Shown here: in pieces, positions 1 to 9,381 of the stretch
How the letters are laid out: each line of letters opens with the position of its first letter
How positions within the stretch are numbered: position 1 is the first letter of the stretch
IMG/VR virus record: IMGVR_UViG_2534682159_000017
Length of the DNA: 9,381 bases
Reading direction: 5' to 3' (one strand)
From: a virus
Lineage: Duplodnaviria > Heunggongvirae > Uroviricota > Caudoviricetes
Translations under genes and position numbers: made by a program
The notes under the pieces: generated by a model
The model's database searches: none
What the model saw: the letters and a program-made list of their open reading frames with translations, nothing else
What the model was told of the DNA's origin: nothing

Positions 1-1242
1 ATGGCGAGAAAAACACCCCCATTAACCACAGTACAGATCAAAGCAGCCAGACCAGCAGAAAAGGAATACACCCTACAGGACGGCGGAGGGCTTTTTCTCC
101 TGATCAAACCGTCCGGATCAAAACTCTGGAGATTTTCCTACTACCGACCATCGGACAAAAAAAGAATATTGCTGAGTTTTGGATCGCTTGATGATGTTTC
201 CCTGGCTGATGCCAGAAAACGCCGTAGCGAGTACAGGGCGTTAATTCGTGCCGGAACTGACCCGCAGGACCACGAGAGGCAAAAAAGAGAGACAGAGGCC
301 AGAAGACAAGGGAACACGTTCGAAAATGTGGCAACAGCATGGTACCAGGTGAAAATCAGCCAGAATCTGGCCCCCAATACGATTAAAGACATCTGGCGAT
401 CGCTGGAAAAATATGTATTCCCGTTCATCGGCAACACGCCAATAGACACCCTGACCGCTCGCAGGTTCGTTGAGGTGCTTACCCCCATCAAGGAACGTGG
501 CAACCTGGAAACGCTCAAGCGAGTTTTACAGCGTATAAATGAGGTAATGGATTACGCCGCCAATAGTGGGATGATTGATGCCAATCCGGCTATGAATGTG
601 CGTAAGGCGTTCCCCTCCCCTGTAAAAAAACATATGCCAACAATCCGCCCCGAACAGCTGCCGGAGCTTATGCAGGCTTTATCAGTATCGGCAACAGAAC
701 GGCAGACCAGATTACTGATTGAATGGCAGTTACTGACCGTAACCCGTCCCGTTGAAGCATCGTCGGCACGCTGGGAAGAAATCGACATGGAAGCGCAACG
801 CTGGACCATACCCGCCGGACGCATGAAGATGCGCCGCGACCACGTTATCCCGCTTTGTGACCAGGCTATGGCAGTGCTGGAGGCTATGAAACCAATCAGC
901 CACCACCGCGATTATGTTTTCCCGAGTCTGAAAGACCCACAGCAGCCGATGAACAGCCAGACCGCTAACGCAGCATTACGACGCATGGGATTCGCTGGCG
1001 TGCTGGTGTCTCATGGATTACGCGCCATATTCAGCACAGCAGCGAACGAAGAAGGCTTTGAGCCGGACGTAATAGAGGCCGCACTTGCCCACGTCGACAC
1101 CAACGAAGTCAGACGGGCATACAACCGGAGCAACTACATAGAAAAACGCATCGTGCTTATGCGCTGGTGGGGCGAATTTGTCGAGGCTGCGGCGACGGGC
1201 GTAACCCTCGCCAGTGGTAAAAGGGGTATCCGAGCCGTTTAG
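1..1242 (+). CDS. int: Tyrosine recombinase / site-specific integrase, P4-like family
   Basis: 413-aa ORF. N-terminus (TLQDGGGLFLLIKPSGSKLWRFSYY) matches the P4-integrase-type arm-binding domain. C-terminus has catalytic-domain motifs (HVIPLCDQA, HGLRAIFSTAA, RRAYNRSNY with the tyrosine). ATG is at window position 1 and stop TAG at 1240-1242; upstream context cannot be seen. Confidence 0.93.
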   Translation: MARKTPPLTTVQIKAARPAEKEYTLQDGGGLFLLIKPSGSKLWRFSYYRPSDKKRILLSFGSLDDVSLADARKRRSEYRALIRAGTDPQDHERQKRETEARRQGNTFENVATAWYQVKISQNLAPNTIKDIWRSLEKYVFPFIGNTPIDTLTARRFVEVLTPIKERGNLETLKRVLQRINEVMDYAANSGMIDANPAMNVRKAFPSPVKKHMPTIRPEQLPELMQALSVSATERQTRLLIEWQLLTVTRPVEASSARWEEIDMEAQRWTIPAGRMKMRRDHVIPLCDQAMAVLEAMKPISHHRDYVFPSLKDPQQPMNSQTANAALRRMGFAGVLVSHGLRAIFSTAANEEGFEPDVIEAALAHVDTNEVRRAYNRSNYIEKRIVLMRWWGEFVEAAATGVTLASGKRGIRAV

Positions 1243-1738: not shown

Positions 1739-1945
1739 ATGGAAGCAATCAAAAAAGTCATCTTTCGCCAGGAAGTAAAAAAACTTATCCACATTAAGGC
1801 AGACAGCACGCTGCAAAGCATGATCAACGCCGGAGAATTCCCGCAGGGTTTTCGTGTCGGTTTGCGCCGTCGCGGATGGTATGAGGAAGACGTAATCGCA
1901 TGGATGAAAGAACGCGAACAAGAAGCGCGCGGAACGACCGCTTAA
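1739..1945 (+). CDS. alpA: AlpA-family phage transcriptional regulator (small MerR-like HTH, excisionase-like)
   Basis: 68-aa ORF; SD GAGG at 1726-1729, 9 nt before the ATG. Sequence pattern typical of AlpA/Vis-type prophage regulators (IHIKADSTLQSMINAGEFPQGFRVGLRRRGWYEEDVIAWM). Position directly after a P4-type integrase is canonical. Confidence 0.88.
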   Translation: MEAIKKVIFRQEVKKLIHIKADSTLQSMINAGEFPQGFRVGLRRRGWYEEDVIAWMKEREQEARGTTA

Positions 1946-2630: not shown

Positions 2631-3191
2631 ATGGTTGCCGTAAATCATATACCACACCTTGTACACACACAAACGGCCTTTGTGTGGCGTTTTCTGGCCC
2701 TGAATATCGGAGAAAAAAACCAGTTGATCGCCAGTGTCGAAAATAGCTATGATTCCCGCGCACCTCATAAAACGGGTGCCGGGATTGGCGTCCTGGGCAA
2801 AACTGAAGCGCATAACACGCGCCCCGCGTGTTTTTTTGTGCCGCATAGTCACACCTTATCAATGGTGGGCTGTACGGGGGCGGAGCAATCCGCGCCGGTT
2901 TCTTCAGTGTCCGGTTACGCCAACCCTGTACAGTCCGCCACCAGCGAAATTGGCGTTTCCGGTGGCGGTTATCTTAACCACACTGAGGAGGCTGCCAACA
3001 TGGCTACTATCCCTACCCTTGTACATTCTCAAACCGCCTTTCTCTGGCGCTTTATCATCTTTGGCGCGTCAGAACATCAAATCATCCACGTAACCGCCTG
3101 GACGGAACGCGAAGCGCGTAACCGTTGCCCGTCCGGTTGTGTCGCTGTATTCGCCGCCCGTATTCGCCAGGGGGAAACCTATGCACAATAA
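2631..3191 (+). CDS. Hypothetical protein with internal tandem duplication (186 aa); first gene of the rightward operon
   Basis: Strong SD GAGGAG (2620-2625) 5 nt before the ATG; stop overlaps the next gene start (ATGCACAATAA). Two homologous segments (IPHLVHTQTAFVWRFLAL... and IPTLVHSQTAFLWRFIIF...) differ partly by synonymous third-position changes, which argues for coding. No family recognised. Confidence 0.5.
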   Translation: MVAVNHIPHLVHTQTAFVWRFLALNIGEKNQLIASVENSYDSRAPHKTGAGIGVLGKTEAHNTRPACFFVPHSHTLSMVGCTGAEQSAPVSSVSGYANPVQSATSEIGVSGGGYLNHTEEAANMATIPTLVHSQTAFLWRFIIFGASEHQIIHVTAWTEREARNRCPSGCVAVFAARIRQGETYAQ

Positions 3192-3876: not shown

Positions 3877-4176
3877 ATGAAACTTAAATATTCTGGCTTA
3901 ACTGCCAGTGGCAACACTCACCCTAAATTTACGCGCGGTGATATTTACCGCGACCAGTACGGCGGTACGGTAATGATTAAGGGCGTGGCGGGACGGTGCG
4001 TAACTTACCGCCGTGAAGGTTACGAATATGATTGCGTGATGCCTGTTTATCAGTTCCGGCGTGATTTTTCTCTGGTACAGACCGCGCCGCATAACGTGCC
4101 CACCAGCAACTCCAGGGCACGGGCAAACATCCAGAAGCTGAAAACCATGATTAACGGATTCAGGGGTAAAAAATGA
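3877..4176 (+). CDS. Hypothetical protein (99 aa)
   Basis: SD GGAGA (3863-3867) 9 nt before the ATG; stop overlaps the rep start as ATGA at 4173-4176. No recognisable family. Confidence 0.6.
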   Translation: MKLKYSGLTASGNTHPKFTRGDIYRDQYGGTVMIKGVAGRCVTYRREGYEYDCVMPVYQFRRDFSLVQTAPHNVPTSNSRARANIQKLKTMINGFRGKK

Positions 4177-5582
4177 AACTGGCACCGAACGTAAAACGAT
4201 TACCGAAAGATAAATACACCGATGCGATTATTTTTGCGGGTATTGATGCTCATTCATTCGCAGAGCATTACATCATTGCACAGGCCAAAAAAGCAGGCGA
4301 TCCAGTCCCTCCCGTTTATCTGGGGCGTTATCAGTTAAGCGAACTGGATAACCTCCAGATTGTTGATGATGGGCGATACAGGGCGACGGTGATACGCGCC
4401 GGAAATATTGAAGAGCCGCAGCTGTTAACCATCGCCACGAAACTGGCGATCGCCGGAGTCCAGGAGGCGCGGCTACTTTCTGAAAATTTCGAATTGCTGG
4501 AGGAATGGAGCGACCAGCTTCCACGGCTTAGGGAGGCATGGGAACGCGGGGAAAGCCTGGTCATGAAAAAAATCCCCCAGCGAAAAACCACGCTACCGAT
4601 GAGCGTTGGATCTACCGGATACGACACACAGCTTGATTACGTGGTAAAGGGGATTATTCCGGCATCGTCGCTATGCAGCATATACGGGGCGAGCGGTTCC
4701 TATAAATCATTCCTTGCCGGATCGTGGGCGTGTCACGTTTCCACGGGCCGCCAGTGGGGAGGCCGCAGGGTGGCGCATGGTGCGGTTCTCTATGTGGTTG
4801 GTGAAGGCGGTATCGGCGTTCCGCGTCGTGTAAAAGCCTGGGAGGTTGTGCACGGTGAGCAGGTGAAAAATCTGTATCTGGTAAACCGTCCCATCTTTCC
4901 GGCGGTCCCGCTTGATGTTGATGAAATGGTTATCGCTGCCCGTCAGGTGGAGCGGGAAACGGGTAAACCTGTACGCATGATTATTCTGGATACGCTGGCG
5001 CGTTGCTTTGGTGGGAATGATGAAAATGATTCCCGTGATATGGGGGCGTTTATCCGTGGTTGTGACGAACTGAAACGGCGCACAGGGGCCACGGTGCTGG
5101 TGGTTCACCATTCCGGCAAGGATGAGACGAAAGGCGCGCGCGGTTCCAGTGCATTTCGTGCTTCGCTGGATGCTGAATACCGGATACGCAGAGAGGACGC
5201 AGGCAGCGAAGCGCTGGTTATCTCATGCACCAAAATGAAGGACGCGGAGGAACTCAAAGAAGCCGCATATGACTTACGCGTGGTGGAGCTTTTTACCGAC
5301 GCTGACGGGGAGTTAATCACGTCGCTGGTGGTGGTGGATAAGCCGCGCCCTCCCGTTGAACTGGAGCGCATCGAGGAGGCAGGGAACAAGACGGAGAATC
5401 ACGCCGCGCTATGGCAGTGCATCAGAACACGAACAGCACACGGGGAGGCGTGCACTATCGCCCTTCTCCGCGACGATATGAAAAAGCTGGGGTATGAGAT
5501 GAAGCACTTCCGGCGCTGGCTGTACAAGCTGGAAAATGATGGCGTAATCGTTATTGATGGTGATGACGTGCGCCCGCTGTAA
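4173..5582 (+). CDS. Replication initiator/helicase-like ATPase, RepA-like AAA_25 / RecA-fold family
   Basis: 469-aa ORF. P-loop region IYGASGSYKSFLAG, Walker-B-like MIILDTLARCFGG, and the family-typical LVVHHSGKD motif. Iteron array begins 4 bp after the stop. SD AGGGG 6 nt before the ATG. No primase domain recognised in the N-terminal 150 aa. Confidence 0.88.
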   Translation: MKLAPNVKRLPKDKYTDAIIFAGIDAHSFAEHYIIAQAKKAGDPVPPVYLGRYQLSELDNLQIVDDGRYRATVIRAGNIEEPQLLTIATKLAIAGVQEARLLSENFELLEEWSDQLPRLREAWERGESLVMKKIPQRKTTLPMSVGSTGYDTQLDYVVKGIIPASSLCSIYGASGSYKSFLAGSWACHVSTGRQWGGRRVAHGAVLYVVGEGGIGVPRRVKAWEVVHGEQVKNLYLVNRPIFPAVPLDVDEMVIAARQVERETGKPVRMIILDTLARCFGGNDENDSRDMGAFIRGCDELKRRTGATVLVVHHSGKDETKGARGSSAFRASLDAEYRIRREDAGSEALVISCTKMKDAEELKEAAYDLRVVELFTDADGELITSLVVVDKPRPPVELERIEEAGNKTENHAALWQCIRTRTAHGEACTIALLRDDMKKLGYEMKHFRRWLYKLENDGVIVIDGDDVRPL

Positions 5583-5585
5583 AAA

Positions 5586-5784
5586 GTGGGGAGTAAAAGT
5601 GGGGAGAGTGGGGAATTTAACAAAATTGAAACATAATTACCCACTTTCCCACCTGTATACACCCAAAAAAGTGGGGAGTAAAAAACATATTGAAAAACAT
5701 AACGTTAGAATCACAAAAAAAAGAGGTGGGGAGACGGTGGGTAATTTCAAAAAGTGGGGAGCAAAAGTGGGGAGTAGTGGGGAA
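5586..5784. repeat. Iteron array / replication origin
   Basis: GTGGGGA(G/A) direct repeats start at 5586, 5599, 5609, 5671, 5726, 5754, 5767 and 5777, with a degenerate GGTGGGTA at 5737. They form two clusters flanking an AT-rich segment (about 5615-5725) that holds inverted partial copies (CCCACTT 5640-5646, CCCACC 5648-5653). Confidence 0.85.
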
Positions 5785-6041
5785 TGAACAGAAAAACCAG
5801 AGATAAGACAGCGCCAAAATATAAAGCGTTAGACATGACAGAGCACGCCTTAAAGGTGGCAATCAGAACGATAGACCGCCACGCGGGGGAAGGATACGCG
5901 AAGGAACATCCCGACCTGATAAGCGCATTCATGACCACAGCAGCGGCAAACTTTGCCACGCTGACAGAACGGGAGATTGCCGAAGCGGAACAGGTAACAA
6001 CCATCAACGTAAAAACCGGAGAGTCAGGCGATGATACATGA
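5784..6041 (+). CDS. Hypothetical protein (85 aa)
   Basis: ORF begins inside the last iteron and overlaps the following gene by 11 nt. No good SD spacing; plausible globular composition; no recognisable family. Confidence 0.35.
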   Translation: MNRKTRDKTAPKYKALDMTEHALKVAIRTIDRHAGEGYAKEHPDLISAFMTTAAANFATLTEREIAEAEQVTTINVKTGESGDDT

Positions 6042-6309: not shown

Positions 6310-6332
6310 AGCCGGAGCAATCCGGCTTTTTT
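6310..6332 (+). terminator. Rho-independent terminator
   Basis: Stem AGCCGGA (6310-6316), loop GCAA, stem TCCGGCT (6321-6327), then TTTTTT. Confidence 0.8.
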
Positions 6333-6406
6333 GCGGGTCCTCCTGGTGGGGTGGGCCTGAACACGGGGCGGGCGGGCGCGGAAAAAGGCGCATTTTTTGA
6401 TTTTTA
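6327..6406 (+). repeat. Conserved ~80-bp GC-rich box, copy A (TTTTTTGCGGGTCCTCCTGGTGGGGTGGGCCTGAACACGGGGCGGGCGG...GCATTTTTTGATTTT)
   Basis: Near-identical to 8865-8943 apart from 2-3 small indels or substitutions. Begins in the T-tract of the terminator. Ends in a second short GC hairpin (GCGC-loop-GCGC) plus a T-run. Confidence 0.9.
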
Positions 6407-6761
6407 TGGCACCATCACCACCACTATAAGTTATTGATATATTGAAGAATAAAAATTTTTAGTGTCGAATCAGGTTGTTTTTTGTTCATCACTGGATCGT
6501 TCCCGAAAGCATTTACAAAAAAACAGGCGCAAAAAAAGCGCCCCCGATTGCTGTTACCGGAGGCGCTTTTACACGACAAAGGAGTTTTTATCGCCAGGAT
6601 GACGAGTCTTAATATTGCTTCAATAGCAAAAATGCGTCAATGGCTTTGCCTCTCTGAGAATAATCAGAAAAATCATAATCTGATTTTATGGTAGAAAATG
6701 ATTTATCTATTACTTTTATCGATCAATAATGATGCCCGTTAATCAAAACGGAGGCGGATTT

Positions 6762-6956
6762 ATGCCAGAGAACAACACCAGAAAGCCGGATAAAAGTGCC
6801 ACGGTACACATAGACGCCGGAACTATGGAGAAGATCGAACGCTATCAGCAGTTCATCAAAGATAATCACCCGGGTATGCCAGTGCCCACGAAAGGACAAA
6901 TCACACGCAGCGCGGTTGAATACTGGTACAGGGCAACGTTAGGAGCCTGGCTATGA
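6762..6956 (+). CDS. Small protein with a possible ribbon-helix-helix-like fold, translationally coupled to the protease-capsid gene (64 aa from the ATG at 6762; the track ORF begins at 6729)
   Basis: SD GGAGG (6750-6754) 7 nt before the ATG at 6762. Stop overlaps the capsid-gene start (ATGA at 6953-6956). Fold call rests only on the pattern SATVHIDAGTMEKIERY...GQITRSAVEYWY and is weak. Confidence 0.5.
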   Translation: MPENNTRKPDKSATVHIDAGTMEKIERYQQFIKDNHPGMPVPTKGQITRSAVEYWYRATLGAWL

Positions 6957-8842
6957 AAACATGGTTTTCCATTAAGGCTATGGCAGATGTTGTACATGTG
7001 CGCATTTATGACGAGATCGGCGGGTACGGTGTAAAAGCATCGGCACTTACTGACGAGATCAACGCGTGTGGTAATGCGTCTGAAATCCATCTTCGCATCC
7101 ATTCACCTGGTGGCGACATCTTTGAAGGGCTGGCTATCTATAACGCTCTGAAAAATCATCCGGCAAAAAAAATCGTACACATTGAAGGCATGGCGGCTTC
7201 TATGGCGTCGTTTATTGCCATGTGTGGAGATCACATCGTTATGCCTGAAAACGCGATGATGATGATACATGCCCCCCGTGGTGTTACTGCCGGAGTGTCG
7301 GGCGACGTTCGCCGCTTTGCTGATCTGATGGACAAGCTGGGCGACACGATGGCAGAAACCTATGCCGGAAGAACGGGCAGGAGCAAACAGGAGATCACCT
7401 CAATGATGGAGGCGGAAACCTGGATGGATGGCAATGAGTGTAAGGCTAACGGCTTCGCAGATGAGGTTATACCCGCGATTACAGCAATGGCCCGAATTGA
7501 ATCAAAACGAATCGGAGATTTTTCAAATATGCCGGAAAAAATTAAAAGCATGATCAGCCAGAAAACTGGCAGTGGCGAACAGGAACGACTTAACGGAATC
7601 CGTGAATTGTTTGGCACCTTCAACGGAAGATATAACGACCTGGCTATAAGTTGTCTTGCGGATTCAGAATGTAGCGTTGAGAATGCACGCGAACGCCTTT
7701 TACTCGCTATGGGTAAAGAATCAACGCCAACAAACAAAACCACCCCCGCAAATCTTTACTACGCGTACACGGATAACGGCAATATAACTGGCGATGCCAT
7801 GCGTCAGGGGCTTAATGCGCGTCTTGGTCACGAACGGGCCGAACGCGGTAATCCTTACGCCATGATGAGTCTTTTCGATATGGCACAGGCATCATTAACC
7901 CATCGTGGTATAAGCACGGGCAGCTACAGCACACGCTCGCAGATAGTAAACGCGGCATTCACCCACAGCAGCAGCGATTTTACCGATATCCTTGCTGGTG
8001 GCGCTGAAAAATCAGTGCTTGCAGGCTGGGAGCACAGCGGCGAAACATTCCGCCAGTGGACGAAAAAAGGTTCCCTTTCAAACTTCCGGGAAGCCCGCCG
8101 CGTTGGTATGAATGGCTTCTCAACGTTAAACAAAGTGCCGGAAGGGGCAGAATATAAATACATCACCACCAGCGATCGCGGTGAACCCATCGCGCTGGCT
8201 ACTTACGGGAATATTTTCAGCATTACCCGCCAGGCGATAATCAATGATGACCTTGATCAGTTATCAACGGTGCCAATGGCTATGGGCCGTGCAGCATCAA
8301 GAACGGTGGGAAATCTGGTTAATCTGGTGCTTACAGGCAACGTAAAACTTTCTGACGGAATAACGCTGTTTGACAAAAAACACAGCAACCTGATTGAAGC
8401 AGGACTGACAACACCGGGACTTAGTGCAGCACGTCACCTGATGCGCACACAGAAGGACAAAAATGGCGAAGTGCTGAATATTGCGCCTAAATTCCTTTTA
8501 GTTCCGGCAGCACTGGAAGATCGCGCGTTGCAGATGATTAACTCAACCGCACCTTTCGGGGCTGATAAAAACAGCGGGATCTTTAACCCGTACCACAAGC
8601 TACTTGATATCATCGTCGATCCCCGCCTTGATGATATCAGCGAAAAACAATGGTACATGCTTTCCGCACAGGGAACGGACACAATCGAGGTGGCTTATCT
8701 TGATGGCAATGACGAGCCTTACCTTGAACAGCAGGAAGGTTTTATCGTTGACGGCGTGGCCTGGAAAGTCCGTATTGATGCAGGTGTGGCAGCTCTGGAT
8801 TATCGCGGTATGGTCAAATCAGGCGGTACCGATTCACTATGA
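6953..8842 (+). CDS. Fusion protein: ClpP-like (S14) prohead serine protease, N-terminal, joined to an HK97-fold phage major capsid protein, C-terminal
   Basis: 629-aa ORF; SD AGGAG (6941-6945) 7 nt before the ATG. ClpP active-site signatures GMAASMAS (Ser83, codon 7199-7201) and MMMIHAPRG (His106) match ClpP GQAASMG and MIHQP. The C-terminal ~350 aa have capsid-like composition and length. Terminator immediately downstream. Confidence 0.88.
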   Translation: MKTWFSIKAMADVVHVRIYDEIGGYGVKASALTDEINACGNASEIHLRIHSPGGDIFEGLAIYNALKNHPAKKIVHIEGMAASMASFIAMCGDHIVMPENAMMMIHAPRGVTAGVSGDVRRFADLMDKLGDTMAETYAGRTGRSKQEITSMMEAETWMDGNECKANGFADEVIPAITAMARIESKRIGDFSNMPEKIKSMISQKTGSGEQERLNGIRELFGTFNGRYNDLAISCLADSECSVENARERLLLAMGKESTPTNKTTPANLYYAYTDNGNITGDAMRQGLNARLGHERAERGNPYAMMSLFDMAQASLTHRGISTGSYSTRSQIVNAAFTHSSSDFTDILAGGAEKSVLAGWEHSGETFRQWTKKGSLSNFREARRVGMNGFSTLNKVPEGAEYKYITTSDRGEPIALATYGNIFSITRQAIINDDLDQLSTVPMAMGRAASRTVGNLVNLVLTGNVKLSDGITLFDKKHSNLIEAGLTTPGLSAARHLMRTQKDKNGEVLNIAPKFLLVPAALEDRALQMINSTAPFGADKNSGIFNPYHKLLDIIVDPRLDDISEKQWYMLSAQGTDTIEVAYLDGNDEPYLEQQEGFIVDGVAWKVRIDAGVAALDYRGMVKSGGTDSL

Positions 8843-8846
8843 CAAC

Positions 8847-8870
8847 AAGGCGGCACCAGCCGCCTTTTTT
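8847..8870 (+). terminator. Rho-independent terminator
   Basis: Stem AAGGCGGC (8847-8854), loop ACCA, stem GCCGCCTT (8859-8866), T-run 8865-8870; 5 bp after the capsid stop. Confidence 0.8.
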
Positions 8871-8943
8871 GCGGGTCCTCCTGGTGGGGTGGGCCTGAAC
8901 ACGGGGCGGGCGGCGCGGAAAAAAACGCATTTTTTTGATTTTA
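8865..8943 (+). repeat. Conserved ~80-bp GC-rich box, copy B
   Basis: Direct repeat of 6327-6406, in the same position relative to a terminator. Confidence 0.9.
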
Positions 8944-9099
8944 TCGTCATCATCATCATGTTCGTAAGTGATTGTTTTTAATTGCTTTGATGTAAAAAAG
9001 ATGATGAAGAAGGTTGTTTTTTGTTCGACATCTTTTAGCGTGACAGATTCTTTACAAAAAATCTGAGCTTGTTTTCTTCACCAGCGCGATGGGGGCACA

Positions 9100-9381
9100 A
9101 TGACAGAAGCCGAAATACTGGGATTAATCCGCCGCGTCGCCGGAATCAGCCAGCAGGTTGACGAACAGGCCACACAGCCGGACAGCATGACCGCAGATAA
9201 TTATGTGCGTGTAGTGGTGGAGGTGATGCGCCGTGATGGTATAGAACTTAATGGCGTTGATATGCGCGACATACGGATCCGCGTTCTTGAAATGCTGGCC
9301 TACAATCGCCGTGTAGAGATGTACAGGGAGAAAGAGAAAATTACGTACAACTGGAAGAAGCCGGAGCGGTTACGGCGGTAA
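9100..9381 (+). CDS. Hypothetical protein (93 aa), first gene after the capsid gene; possibly a head-completion or connector-type protein
   Basis: SD GGGGG 5 nt before the ATG; complete ORF with stop TAA at 9379-9381. Functional guess is from position in the morphogenesis module only. Confidence 0.55.
   Translation: MTEAEILGLIRRVAGISQQVDEQATQPDSMTADNYVRVVVEVMRRDGIELNGVDMRDIRIRVLEMLAYNRRVEMYREKEKITYNWKKPERLRR

What the first reader, a model, noticed from the sequence alone, without database searches (positions are those of the whole stretch)
6953..8842. Single polypeptide combining ClpP-like prohead protease and major capsid protein
The ClpP catalytic Ser and His signatures are intact in the first ~110 aa and the capsid domain is in the same reading frame, with about 150 aa between them that could act as a scaffold or delta-like region. 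This predicts self-processing capsids built from one gene product, an economical design for a satellite making its own small heads. No separate scaffold or protease gene is present in the window.
Basis: partly seen in the sequence, partly recalled or inferred. Interest (0 to 1): 0.55.

Follow-up and report, generated by a model that had tools for sequence, protein, structure and literature searches.

The report
Fused protease–scaffold–capsid gene on a phage satellite
The 629-residue ORF really is a ClpP-type head protease fused in frame to a phage capsid protein, but this fusion is a common, already-named phage protein family; here it sits on a small E. coli phage satellite, where its role has never been tested.

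Summary
Observation confirmed. ORF 6953-8842 (+) encodes one 629-aa protein: a ClpP-fold protease (about 1-175; Ser83, His106, Glu155), a linker with a three-helix module (176-256), a disordered stretch (257-277) and an HK97-fold capsid body (278-629).

It is not new. It scores 890 bits against NCBIfam NF045540, [quoted passage not shown] (cutoff 475), and RefSeq already gives closely related copies (98-100% nucleotide identity) that name. 142 of the 150 best cluster representatives have the same fused layout. In lambdoid phage mEp460 (record read), and apparently its relatives such as Stx phages and Gifsy-2, it is the only capsid gene.

The window is a roughly 9.5-10-kb Gram-negative PICI-type satellite related to EcCI042: integrase, AlpA-like regulator, RepA helicase with iterons, and PerC. 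It has no portal, terminase or tail genes. Two cos sites bracket the fusion gene and match the cos site of lambdoid prophages that carry a homologous fusion.

The gene is under strong purifying selection in all three parts (dN/dS 0.07-0.12). "Builds its own small heads" is untested. Related PICIs carry capsid genes that were dispensable with phage lambda. Satellite-borne fusions have an unusually short protease-scaffold spacer. Ordinary family; open question about its role in the satellite.

The parts
6953..8842 (+). 629-aa ClpP-like prohead protease / scaffold-like linker / HK97-fold major capsid protein fusion (the finding)
   Evidence: ORF. Pfam, PHROG and NCBIfam hits. AlphaFold model with pLDDT 90.5. 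Fold matches. dN/dS 0.083 against the 91%-identity satellite clade.
6953..7477 (+). ClpP-fold protease domain (residues 1 to about 175) with Ser83, His106 and Glu155
7478..7783 (+). Linker (residues 176-207), three-helix module (208-256) and disordered stretch (257-277). Presumed internal scaffold or delta-like part and likely site of maturation cleavage
   Evidence: Secondary structure and pLDDT profile. dN/dS 0.067 for residues 186-329. Conserved F190-x-N192-x-P194 motif. Assigning scaffold function and the cleavage site is inference.
7784..8842 (+). HK97-fold capsid body including the N-arm (residues 278-629; 38.3 kDa if cleaved near residue 277)
6729..6956 (+). 75-aa ORF of unknown function whose stop overlaps the fusion's start codon (ATGA). 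Probably co-transcribed and translationally coupled
   Evidence: PHROG 4934, unknown function. Weak similarity (38% over 45 aa) to the 69-aa ORF in the same position in the 62% satellite clade. A small ORF also precedes the capsid gene in EcCICFT073.
6310..6436 (+). Terminator hairpin (6310-6327) followed by cos-like site 1 (about 6329-6420)
   Evidence: Direct repeat D1. Terminator scan. 85 of 100 aligned positions identical to the cos region of the O157 lambdoid prophage, including a long perfect run through the ACGGGGCGGGCGGGCGCGG core.
8848..9090 (+). Hairpin followed by a T-run (8848-8870; read by eye, not reported by the terminator scan) followed by cos-like site 2. Similarity to the helper prophage's cos extends about 230 nt on the cosB side
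   Evidence: 90 of 100 identical in the core, and shared downstream blocks such as GATTTTATCGTCATCATCATCATG and GGTTGTTTTTTGTTCGACATCTT.
9100..9381 (+). 93-aa ORF conserved at the right end of this kind of satellite
   Evidence: PHROG 1561, unknown function. 84% identical to the last ORF of EcCICFT073 and 73% to that of the 62% clade. Not Rpp: no PDB hit, and RppA is the 144-aa c1503 product.
1..1242 (+). Tyrosine integrase marking the left end of the satellite
   Evidence: Pfam Phage_integrase, Phage_int_M and Arm-DNA-bind_3. Lies next to tRNA-Pro in the closest genome.
1739..1945 (+). AlpA-like helix-turn-helix regulator
   Evidence: Weak Pfam hits to Phage_AlpA (E 0.003) and HTH_17, both below the gathering cutoff. 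RefSeq names it 'helix-turn-helix transcriptional regulator'.
4173..5582 (+). RepA-family helicase (AAA_25), the replication initiator
   Evidence: Pfam AAA_25, E 6e-44. PHROG 2850 and primase/helicase families.
5585..5783 (+). Seven AGTGGGGA iterons around an AT-rich stretch; putative replication origin just 3' of the rep gene
   Evidence: Direct repeat D2. Motif positions. This layout is listed as a PICI feature in PMC6092414.
6031..6303 (+). PerC-family transcriptional activator
   Evidence: Pfam PerC, E 3.3e-43.

Best explanation
**What it is (shown).** The ORF is an ordinary, intact member of the ClpP-like prohead protease / scaffold / HK97-fold major capsid protein fusion family (NCBIfam NF045540). 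It sits on a roughly 9.5-10-kb Gram-negative PICI-type satellite related to EcCI042. The satellite's two cos sites match lambdoid phages that build their heads from a homologous fusion. The satellite copy is kept under purifying selection in all three segments.

**How it most likely works (inferred from HK97, lambda and Mu head assembly).**
1. The protein assembles into a procapsid shell around a portal supplied by the helper.
2. The N-terminal protease and helical scaffold-like part face inwards.
3. Ser83/His106/Glu155 then cut within or near the disordered stretch at 257-277, leaving a capsid subunit of about 38 kDa.
4. The helper terminase, which can read the satellite's helper-type cos site directly, fills the shell, and helper tails are added.

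My committed reading is that the satellite uses this protein, alone or mixed with the helper's 54%-identical homologue, to provide or reshape heads for its own DNA. I put about 0.5 on that, and about 0.3 on the heads being smaller than the helper's. It cannot make heads without the helper's portal, terminase and head-tail joining proteins.
For: **Family identity.** (890 bits against a 475-bit cutoff). RefSeq gives closely related copies the same name (98.6-100% nucleotide identity).

**Folds.**

**Catalytic residues.**

**The fusion is the sole capsid gene of viable phages.** mEp460 gene order. Full-length homologues at about 51% identity in Stx, cdtI, CP-1639 and mEp phages.

**Satellite identity.**
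- Integrase, AlpA-like regulator, DUF4222, RepA helicase and PerC.
- Iterons.
- Insertion between tRNA-Pro and yejO with no portal, terminase or tail genes.
- The same module is in E. coli 042, whose island EcCI042 is a named PICI.

**Helper match.** The window's cos sites are nearly identical to the cos site upstream of the TerS/TerL genes of an O157 lambdoid prophage that has its own fusion gene. The 62% satellite clade matches mEp460's cos, and EcCICFT073 (lambda-type capsid gene) matches lambda-type cos. So capsid type and cos type both track helper type.

**Selection.** Window against the 91% satellite clade: dS 0.58 and dN/dS 0.083 overall; 0.117 for the protease, 0.067 for the linker, 0.074 for the capsid part.

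**Long separate history.** Satellite copies are only 54% identical to the fusion of the prophage they are embedded in, with dS saturated. They are not recent pick-ups.

**Precedents.** SaPIbov5 Ccm, a capsid homologue that redirects head size, and the capsid homologue of PmCI172.
Against: - There is no experiment on this protein in a satellite.
- In EcCICFT073, which has a different (lambda E-like) capsid gene at the same position, deleting the capsid or decoration gene did not relieve interference with lambda, and packaged DNA was phage-sized (PMC6092414). A preprint states that PICI capsid genes are not needed for helper-assisted transfer.
- Those tests used lambda or phage 80 and did not involve a fusion-type PICI with a fusion-type helper.
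- The cleavage site, the inward orientation of the N-terminal part and co-assembly with the helper protein are inferred, not shown.
- The AlphaFold model is a monomer and says nothing about shell size.
Confidence: 0.62

Rival explanations
1. Dispensable passenger or backup copy. The capsid gene was captured from a helper-type phage and persists because it is harmless or only occasionally useful, for example as a spare copy. It has no dedicated role in satellite packaging.
For: The EcCICFT073 capsid and decoration gene deletions had no effect on lambda interference, and packaging was phage-sized. [quoted passage not shown]
Against: - dN/dS is 0.07-0.12 in every segment over dS 0.58.
- The gene is intact in 143 of 144 complete E. 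coli genomes that carry it.
- At least two satellite clades, 64% identical to each other and 54-60% identical to phage copies, keep it in the same position next to different integrases and replication modules.
- The EcCICFT073 tests used a non-cognate capsid type.
Confidence: 0.15
2. Interference-only poison subunit. The satellite protein co-assembles with the helper's 54%-identical fusion and spoils helper head assembly or maturation. This lowers helper yield without producing usable heads for the satellite.
For: - Interference with the helper is a general PICI trait.
- Capsid homologues can enter mixed shells, as in the Ccm models.
- The capsid domain is 55-57% identical to phage versions.
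Against: A pure poison would not need an intact catalytic triad or a conserved protease domain (dN/dS 0.117; residues kept). The satellite also depends on helper-type heads for its own transfer.
Confidence: 0.1
3. Not strictly one polypeptide. A nested internal start at Met193, at the protease/linker border, also yields a 47.7-kDa scaffold-plus-capsid product without the protease, as with lambda C/Nu3 and Mu I/Z. This would set the protease-to-shell ratio.
For: An in-frame ATG at the same alignment position occurs in all five enterobacterial satellite and phage sequences examined. Each is preceded by GGAG or GAGG, even where the encoded residues differ (GD against EE). Mass.
Against: - The position is not Met across the wider family: Ala 34, Val 28, Pro 15, Ile 15 and Leu 14 of 142.
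- The SD-like motif lies 10-11 nt from the ATG, which is long.
- No expression data exist.
Confidence: 0.1

Closest known systems
NCBIfam NF045540 (scaf_prot_MCP1) / PHROG 133: ClpP-like prohead protease-major capsid protein fusions of lambdoid phages such as mEp460, cdtI, CP-1639, VT1-Sakai and other Stx phages, Gifsy-2 and Fels-1
   Same: Same three-part architecture, same catalytic residues and same capsid family. Alignment is full-length at 51-54% identity. The cos sites of the satellite match those of these phages.
   Different: The satellite copy has no portal gene in front of it. It also lacks the roughly 30-residue Pro/Ala-rich spacer between protease and scaffold, so it is 629 aa against 652-680 aa.
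Protease-scaffold-capsid fusions of small-genome actinobacteriophages (Microbacterium cluster EE, Arthrobacter AN/AX/FE, Gordonia CW/DM, RRH1)
   Same: One gene combines maturation protease, scaffold and HK97-like capsid subunit. The authors link this to very small genomes (PMC7302621).
   Different: These are autonomous lytic phages with their own portal, terminase and tails. I did not test their sequence relationship to the window protein.
Capsid genes of Gram-negative PICIs (EcCICFT073 c1499/c1500; EcCI042; helper-embedded satellites)
   Same: - Same kind of element and same position in the late region, after PerC and a small ORF and before a conserved 93-aa ORF.
- EcCI042 carries a 99.4%-identical (DNA) copy of the window's fusion gene.
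- The literature records capsid genes in 21 of 29 reference PICIs, and PICIs bearing a CLP_protease gene.
   Different: EcCICFT073 has a separate lambda E-like capsid gene plus a decoration gene and an Rpp packaging-redirection protein. The window has the fused type and neither Rpp nor TerS.
SaPIbov5 Ccm (cos-phage capsid morphogenesis protein)
   Same: A cos-packaged satellite encodes a homologue of its helper's capsid protein. Ccm enters the shells and changes head size.
   Different: Ccm is only 23% identical to its helper's capsid protein, needs that protein, and is not described as carrying a protease domain. Here identity to helper-type proteins is 54% and a complete protease is attached. 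No size change has been shown here.
Capsid-forming PICIs (cf-PICIs, e.g. EcCIEDL933, EcCI2)
   Different: cf-PICIs are about 15 kb and also encode portal, head-tail connectors, HNH, TerS and TerL, with protease and capsid as separate genes in Proteobacteria. None of these is in the window or in the full island in related genomes.

Membership tests
ClpP-like prohead protease / major capsid protein fusion family (NCBIfam NF045540) | Score above the curated whole-protein cutoff of the family model | tested here: met
   890 bits against a cutoff of 475, E 1.1e-267. The sister model NF045541 scores 382.8, below its 525 cutoff, so the protein belongs to type 1.
ClpP-like prohead protease / major capsid protein fusion family (NCBIfam NF045540) | N-terminal ClpP-fold serine protease with catalytic Ser and His (and an acidic third residue) | tested here: met
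ClpP-like prohead protease / major capsid protein fusion family (NCBIfam NF045540) | C-terminal HK97-fold major capsid domain in the same reading frame with no stop | tested here: met
ClpP-like prohead protease / major capsid protein fusion family (NCBIfam NF045540) | Self-processing during head maturation, releasing the mature capsid subunit | not testable with these tools
   Inferred from the intact triad and the disordered stretch at 257-277. Needs expression and mass spectrometry.
Gram-negative phage-inducible chromosomal island (PICI) | Integrase at one end, with most annotated genes (integrase, AlpA-like regulator, replication genes, PerC, fusion) co-oriented; size about 10-20 kb; no lysis or tail genes | tested here: met
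   The island is bounded by tRNA-Pro and yejO, at most about 10 kb, in the closest genome, and by yljB and clpS in strain 042.
Gram-negative phage-inducible chromosomal island (PICI) | AlpA-type regulator downstream of int | tested here: inconclusive
   The 68-aa ORF hits Phage_AlpA at E 0.003, 17.8 bits, below the 21-bit cutoff. It is in the expected position, and RefSeq calls it an HTH regulator.
Gram-negative phage-inducible chromosomal island (PICI) | Own replication initiator with an iteron-type origin immediately 3' of it | tested here: met
   RepA/AAA_25 helicase. Seven AGTGGGGA iterons at 5585-5783. The feature is described in PMC6092414.
Gram-negative phage-inducible chromosomal island (PICI) | Carries the helper phage's cos site | tested here: met
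   Two cos-like sites are 85-90% identical over 100 nt to the cos region of a fusion-type lambdoid prophage.
Gram-negative phage-inducible chromosomal island (PICI) | Induction, replication and high-frequency transfer by a helper phage | not testable with these tools
Only the cos match and the embedding in helper prophages point to the helper.
Capsid-forming PICI (cf-PICI) | Encodes portal, head-tail adaptor and connector, HNH, TerS and TerL in addition to capsid and protease | tested here: not met
   No such Pfam or PHROG hits anywhere in the window. The full island in related genomes ends right after the 93-aa ORF. Requirements taken.
Ccm-type capsid size redirection (SaPIbov5) | Satellite-encoded homologue of the helper's capsid protein on a cos-packaged satellite | tested here: met
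   54% identity to the fusion of the prophage in which sister satellites are embedded. cos match.
Ccm-type capsid size redirection (SaPIbov5) | Produces satellite-sized small capsids and blocks the helper | not testable with these tools
   Needs electron microscopy and sizing of packaged DNA with a cognate helper.
HK97-type head module (gp4 protease + gp5 capsid with delta domain) | Protease of the HK97 gp4 / Peptidase_S78 family | tested here: not met
   The protease matches the ClpP/S14 and SppA/S49 relatives only. No S78 hit appears in Pfam or NCBIfam. The resemblance is functional (an internal N-terminal part removed by a co-assembled protease), not membership.

The most novel reading that the evidence does not exclude
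These roughly 10-kb E. coli PICIs would form an intermediate class between classical PICIs and capsid-forming PICIs. They take only portal, terminase, head-completion proteins and tails from a lambdoid helper. They build satellite-specific, possibly smaller, shells from a single self-processing polypeptide. In this reading the trimmed protease-scaffold spacer (17 residues against 51-57 in the three related phage copies measured, and a family median of 60) is part of the size or specificity adaptation.
Probability: 0.22. Interest if true: 0.6.

Novelty: already known. Interest (0 to 1): 0.3.

Why it matters
The fusion itself adds nothing new. It is a named, widespread phage head protein, and closely related copies of this gene already carry that name in RefSeq.

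What remains open is why most Gram-negative PICIs carry a capsid gene at all. The only published knock-outs I found in the searched library tested a lambda-type capsid gene with lambda as helper and saw no effect.

This island gives a cleaner test case for three reasons:
- The capsid gene is the only morphogenesis gene.
- It is strongly conserved.
- The cos sites point to a specific class of helper, the fusion-type lambdoid prophages that include Shiga-toxin phage relatives in O157:H7.

If the gene does produce or resize heads, it would show a third route to satellite capsids, alongside remodelling helper proteins and encoding a full head module. That would bear on how these islands, which carry PerC-type virulence regulators, spread among pathogenic E. 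coli.

Tried and rejected
1. **Shallow AlphaFold run.** A 23-sequence, satellite-only alignment gave mean pLDDT 42.9 and was discarded. A 127-sequence alignment then gave 90.5.
3. **Sequence search of the PDB.** Only ClpP relatives appeared among the 60 hits shown of 102.
4. **The 93-aa ORF as Rpp.** I tested whether it is the known Rpp packaging-redirection protein. There was no PDB match, and RppA is a different, 144-aa protein. The window has neither Rpp nor TerS.
5. **Nested start at Met193.** It is conserved in enterobacterial copies but not across the family. I kept it only as a low-probability rival.
6. **Att repeats.** I looked for direct repeats flanking the island in the closest genome and found no exact repeat of 12 nt or more. 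Island ends are therefore given only by the flanking genes.
7. **Literature.**
   - Searches for the fusion in satellites found no paper combining PICI, Clp protease and capsid.
   - Phage_Finder and a CBASS preprint mention related terms but not this fusion.
8. **cf-PICI.** Considered and rejected as a classification because portal, connector and terminase genes are absent.
9. **Short spacer as a satellite signature.** I did not treat it as proven. The sample is 15 contexts, the contigs are often short, and spacer length carries phylogenetic signal.
Full report

Yes. The window has one uninterrupted ORF at 6953-8842 on the + strand. It encodes 629 residues and is the longest ORF present.
- Pfam places a Clp protease domain at residues 41-173 (E 3.7e-33) and a phage capsid domain (Phage_capsid_4) at 330-623 (E 1.2e-54) in the same chain.
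GMAASM begins at residue 79, so the serine is Ser83. MIHAP begins at 104, so the histidine is His106.
- In alignments to solved ClpP structures, the third triad position (Asp in ClpP) aligns with Glu155.
- Across 142 fused relatives drawn from 50%-identity cluster representatives, Ser83 is kept in 139, His106 in 140, and position 155 is Glu or Asp in 134.

These scores are far beyond chance.

**2. Domain borders from structure**

A first AlphaFold run on a shallow, satellite-only alignment failed (pLDDT 42.9). A run on 127 diverse relatives gave mean pLDDT 90.5. The model shows:
- a ClpP fold to about residue 175;
- a lower-confidence linker with two short helices (176-207);
- a confident three-helix module (208-256);
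- a disordered stretch (257-277, pLDDT roughly 46-61);
- an alpha/beta body from 278 to 629.

The inter-domain part is about 100 residues by structure, and about 155 if counted to the Pfam capsid boundary. If cleavage falls near residue 277, the mature subunit would be 38.3 kDa. The cleavage position is inference.

**3. It is a known family**

- NCBIfam has a curated model for exactly this architecture: NF045540, [quoted passage not shown]. The window protein scores 890 bits against a cutoff of 475.
- PHROG 133 matches at E 1.8e-280, and PHROG 4523 is named "major head and protease protein".
- RefSeq already gives that name to closely related copies of this gene (98.6-100% nucleotide identity).
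- A search of 1.84 billion cluster representatives found 5,707 clusters at E of 1e-30 or better. Of the 150 best, 142 are at least 600 residues long and match both ends of the query, so the fused layout is very common.
- In the phage collection, 80 records match over at least 80% of the protein at about 51% identity. They include mEp460, cdtI, CP-1639, VT1-Sakai and many Stx-converting phages.
- In the viable lambdoid phage mEp460 the head region reads terS, terL, a small ORF, portal, the fusion (652 aa), then head-tail and tail genes. There is no other capsid gene. The fusion is therefore the sole shell protein of real, normal-sized (44.5-kb) phages.
- Protease-scaffold-capsid fusions have also been described as "an apparent common feature" of siphoviruses with unusually small genomes (PMC7302621).

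**4. What the window is**

The whole window matches E. coli chromosomes at 94-99% identity. In the closest genome it lies between tRNA-Pro and yejO, in a space of at most about 10 kb. There it contains an integrase, small ORFs, an HTH regulator, an Icd-like protein, a DUF4222 protein, a RepA-family helicase, PerC, a small ORF, the fusion and a final 93-aa ORF.

Pfam and PHROG scans of the other ORFs agree and find no portal, terminase, scaffold, protease, tail or lysis gene. Seven AGTGGGGA iterons lie just 3' of the helicase gene, the arrangement described for PICI origins (PMC6092414).

The same fusion gene, at 95% nucleotide identity or more, is in 141 of 5,426 complete E. coli genomes (144 carry a copy at 80% or more). 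In 143 of the 144, the match covers at least 80% of the gene. One carrier is strain 042, whose island EcCI042 is a named PICI. The element is therefore a Gram-negative PICI-type satellite. It is not a capsid-forming PICI, which needs portal, connectors, HNH, TerS and TerL.

**5. Who the helper is**

Two copies of a segment about 90 nt long, each preceded by a hairpin and T-run (the first is called by the terminator scan; the second I read by eye), bracket the small ORF and the fusion gene (6310-6436 and 8848-8974). Their core, GGGTCCTCCTGGTGGGGTGGGCCTGAACACGGGGCGGGCGG(G)CGCGGAAAAA, resembles lambda cosN.

The core is nearly identical to the sequence upstream of the DUF1441 (TerS) and TerL genes of a lambdoid prophage in O157:H7. 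That prophage has its own portal-fusion head module. For the second site the similarity continues for about 230 nt on the cosB side.

A second satellite clade, whose fusion is 62-64% identical, carries cos sites that match mEp460's. EcCICFT073, which has a lambda E-like capsid gene and a decoration gene in the same position, carries lambda-type cos like the lambda-like prophage in the same strain. So across three satellite lineages, capsid gene type and cos type both follow the helper's head and packaging module.

The window has no Rpp and no TerS. This fits direct recognition of its helper-like cosB by the helper terminase. The 62% clade carries a TerS homologue 65% identical to that of mEp460.

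**6. Is the satellite copy functional?**

- Between the window and a 91%-identical satellite clade, dS is 0.58 and dN/dS is 0.083. By segment it is 0.117 for the protease, 0.067 for the linker and 0.074 for the capsid part.
- Catalytic residues are invariant in all satellite copies aligned.
- Satellite copies are only about 54% identical to the fusion of the very prophage in which some of them are embedded, with synonymous sites saturated. They are old, independently evolving genes rather than recent captures.
- The right-end module (small ORF, fusion, 93-aa ORF) sits next to different integrases and replication genes: RepA helicase here and in strain 042, D5-type primase plus SSB in O157 and the 62% clade.

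All this argues against a decaying remnant.

**7. How it most likely works**

Shown: a complete ClpP-type protease, a helical module and an HK97-fold capsid body in one conserved polypeptide, on a satellite whose cos site matches phages that build heads from the same kind of protein.

Inferred from HK97, lambda C/Nu3 and Mu I/Z head assembly (established knowledge, not tested here):
1. The capsid body forms the shell around a portal supplied by the helper.
2. The N-terminal parts point inwards and act as scaffold.
3. The protease then removes them by cutting near the disordered stretch.
4. Helper terminase packages satellite concatemers from cos, and helper tails attach.

Whether the shell is made only of satellite protein or is mixed with the helper's homologue, and whether it is smaller, cannot be decided from sequence. 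I put about 0.5 on a real head-building or head-reshaping role and about 0.3 on smaller heads.

Against this, the only published knock-outs of a PICI capsid gene that I found (EcCICFT073 c1499 and c1500, tested with lambda) had no effect on interference, and packaged DNA was phage-sized. A preprint summarises PICI capsid genes as not required for transfer. Those tests did not involve a fusion-type gene with a fusion-type helper.

**8. An extra pattern: the spacer**

The satellite proteins lack the Pro/Ala-rich spacer that phage copies have between the protease and the helical module. Measured between the conserved Pro194 and Arg212 positions, the window has 17 residues. mEp460 and an O157-type helper have at least 51 (the alignment method may have trimmed these two), and the family median is 60.

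I looked up the genomic context of the shortest-spacer representatives and some longer ones.
- All 11 proteins with a spacer of 30 or less have no portal gene next to them. They sit beside integrase, AlpA-like, primase or helicase genes; one sits beside an IncFII RepA.
- All 4 with a spacer of 36 or more directly follow a portal gene in a phage head module.

In a neighbour-joining tree the short-spacer set falls in at least three places. One large clade, however, has generally short spacers and includes a phage. So the pattern has phylogenetic signal, and the 15 observations are not independent. Several contigs are also short. I report this as a lead, not a result.

**9. Nested start**

An in-frame ATG at codon 193, exactly at the protease/linker border, is preceded by GGAG or GAGG in all enterobacterial copies, even where the encoded residues differ. 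It could give a scaffold-capsid product without the protease, as in lambda C/Nu3. The position is not Met in most of the wider family, so I give this low weight. The neighbouring F-x-N-x-P motif is conserved (Pro194 in 136 of 142) and unexplained.

**10. Comparison with known systems, and verdict**

The protein is a member of NF045540; all testable defining features are met. The element meets the testable PICI features, except that the AlpA hit is below the Pfam cutoff. It fails the cf-PICI definition. Functionally, the nearest studied analogue is SaPIbov5 Ccm, but Ccm is not described as having a protease domain and is far more diverged from its helper's capsid protein.

Satellites embedded in prophage late genes, including the large terminase gene as seen here for sister islands, are already described.

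The finding is therefore real but already known as a protein family and as a class of satellite cargo. What is still open, and directly testable with this island, is what a PICI capsid gene does with its cognate helper. Interest 0.3.

Noticed in passing
window 6310-6436 and 8848-9090: Two cos-like sites, each preceded by a hairpin and T-run, bracket the 75-aa ORF and the fusion gene, 2,538 bp apart. Both match the cos site of fusion-type lambdoid prophages. Only the second shares the helper's cosB-side blocks. EcCICFT073 is also reported to have two cos sites, of which one is essential.
   Followed up: yes
L003 (O157:H7 ECP19-198) 2373-14925; L011, L012 and L013: Sister islands with the same fusion are inserted inside the large terminase gene of a lambdoid prophage that has its own portal-fusion-cement head module. 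The satellite interrupts its likely helper's packaging gene. This 'helper-embedded satellite' arrangement is already described in preprint 10.1101/2022.07.18.500453.
   Followed up: partly
window 7535-7585 (residues 195-211) compared with relatives: Satellite-borne fusions have a very short protease-to-scaffold spacer: 12-30 residues against 36 or more in phage copies and a family median of 60. 11 of 11 short-spacer proteins have no adjacent portal gene, and 4 of 4 long-spacer proteins follow one. The sample is small and not phylogenetically independent.
   Followed up: partly
window 7529-7531 (codon 193) and 7514-7518: An in-frame ATG at the protease/linker border is preceded by GGAGA. It is conserved in enterobacterial satellite and phage copies but not in the wider family. 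It may be a nested start for a protease-less product.
   Followed up: partly
window 7520-7534 (residues 190-194): The motif F-x-N-x-P at the end of the protease domain is strongly conserved across 142 fused relatives (Phe/Tyr in 122, Pro in 136). Its role is unknown; it could be a docking or cleavage signal.
   Followed up: no
window 5585-5783: Seven copies of AGTGGGGA lie in two clusters around an AT-rich stretch, immediately after the RepA helicase gene. This looks like an iteron-type replication origin. The 85-aa ORF 5784-6041 starts right after the last copy, whose final bases overlap its start codon.
   Followed up: partly
window 9100-9381: The 93-aa terminal ORF (PHROG 1561, unknown function) is 84% identical to the last ORF of EcCICFT073 and 73% to that of the 62% clade. 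It is kept whatever the capsid gene type, so it is a core satellite gene of unknown role.
   Followed up: partly
L004-L007, 12171-12656: The 62%-identity satellite clade has a DUF1441 protein between the fusion and the 93-aa ORF. It is 65% identical to the small terminase of mEp460. The window's lineage has no such gene.
   Followed up: partly
L014 (metagenome contig, 10.6 kb): A 50%-identical fusion (P0124) lies on a contig with an integrase, a tape-measure-like protein (TMP_2), an IncFII RepA, a ParA-like protein and ProQ. This is a plasmid-like or hybrid element rather than a phage or a typical PICI.
   Followed up: no
window 2631-3191: The 186-aa + strand ORF contains two copies of an IPxLVHxQTAFxWRF motif about 130 residues apart. 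Related islands are annotated with one to three 'Icd-like cell division inhibitor' genes and a frameshifted ORF in this region, so this part of the island may be rearranged or degenerate.
   Followed up: no
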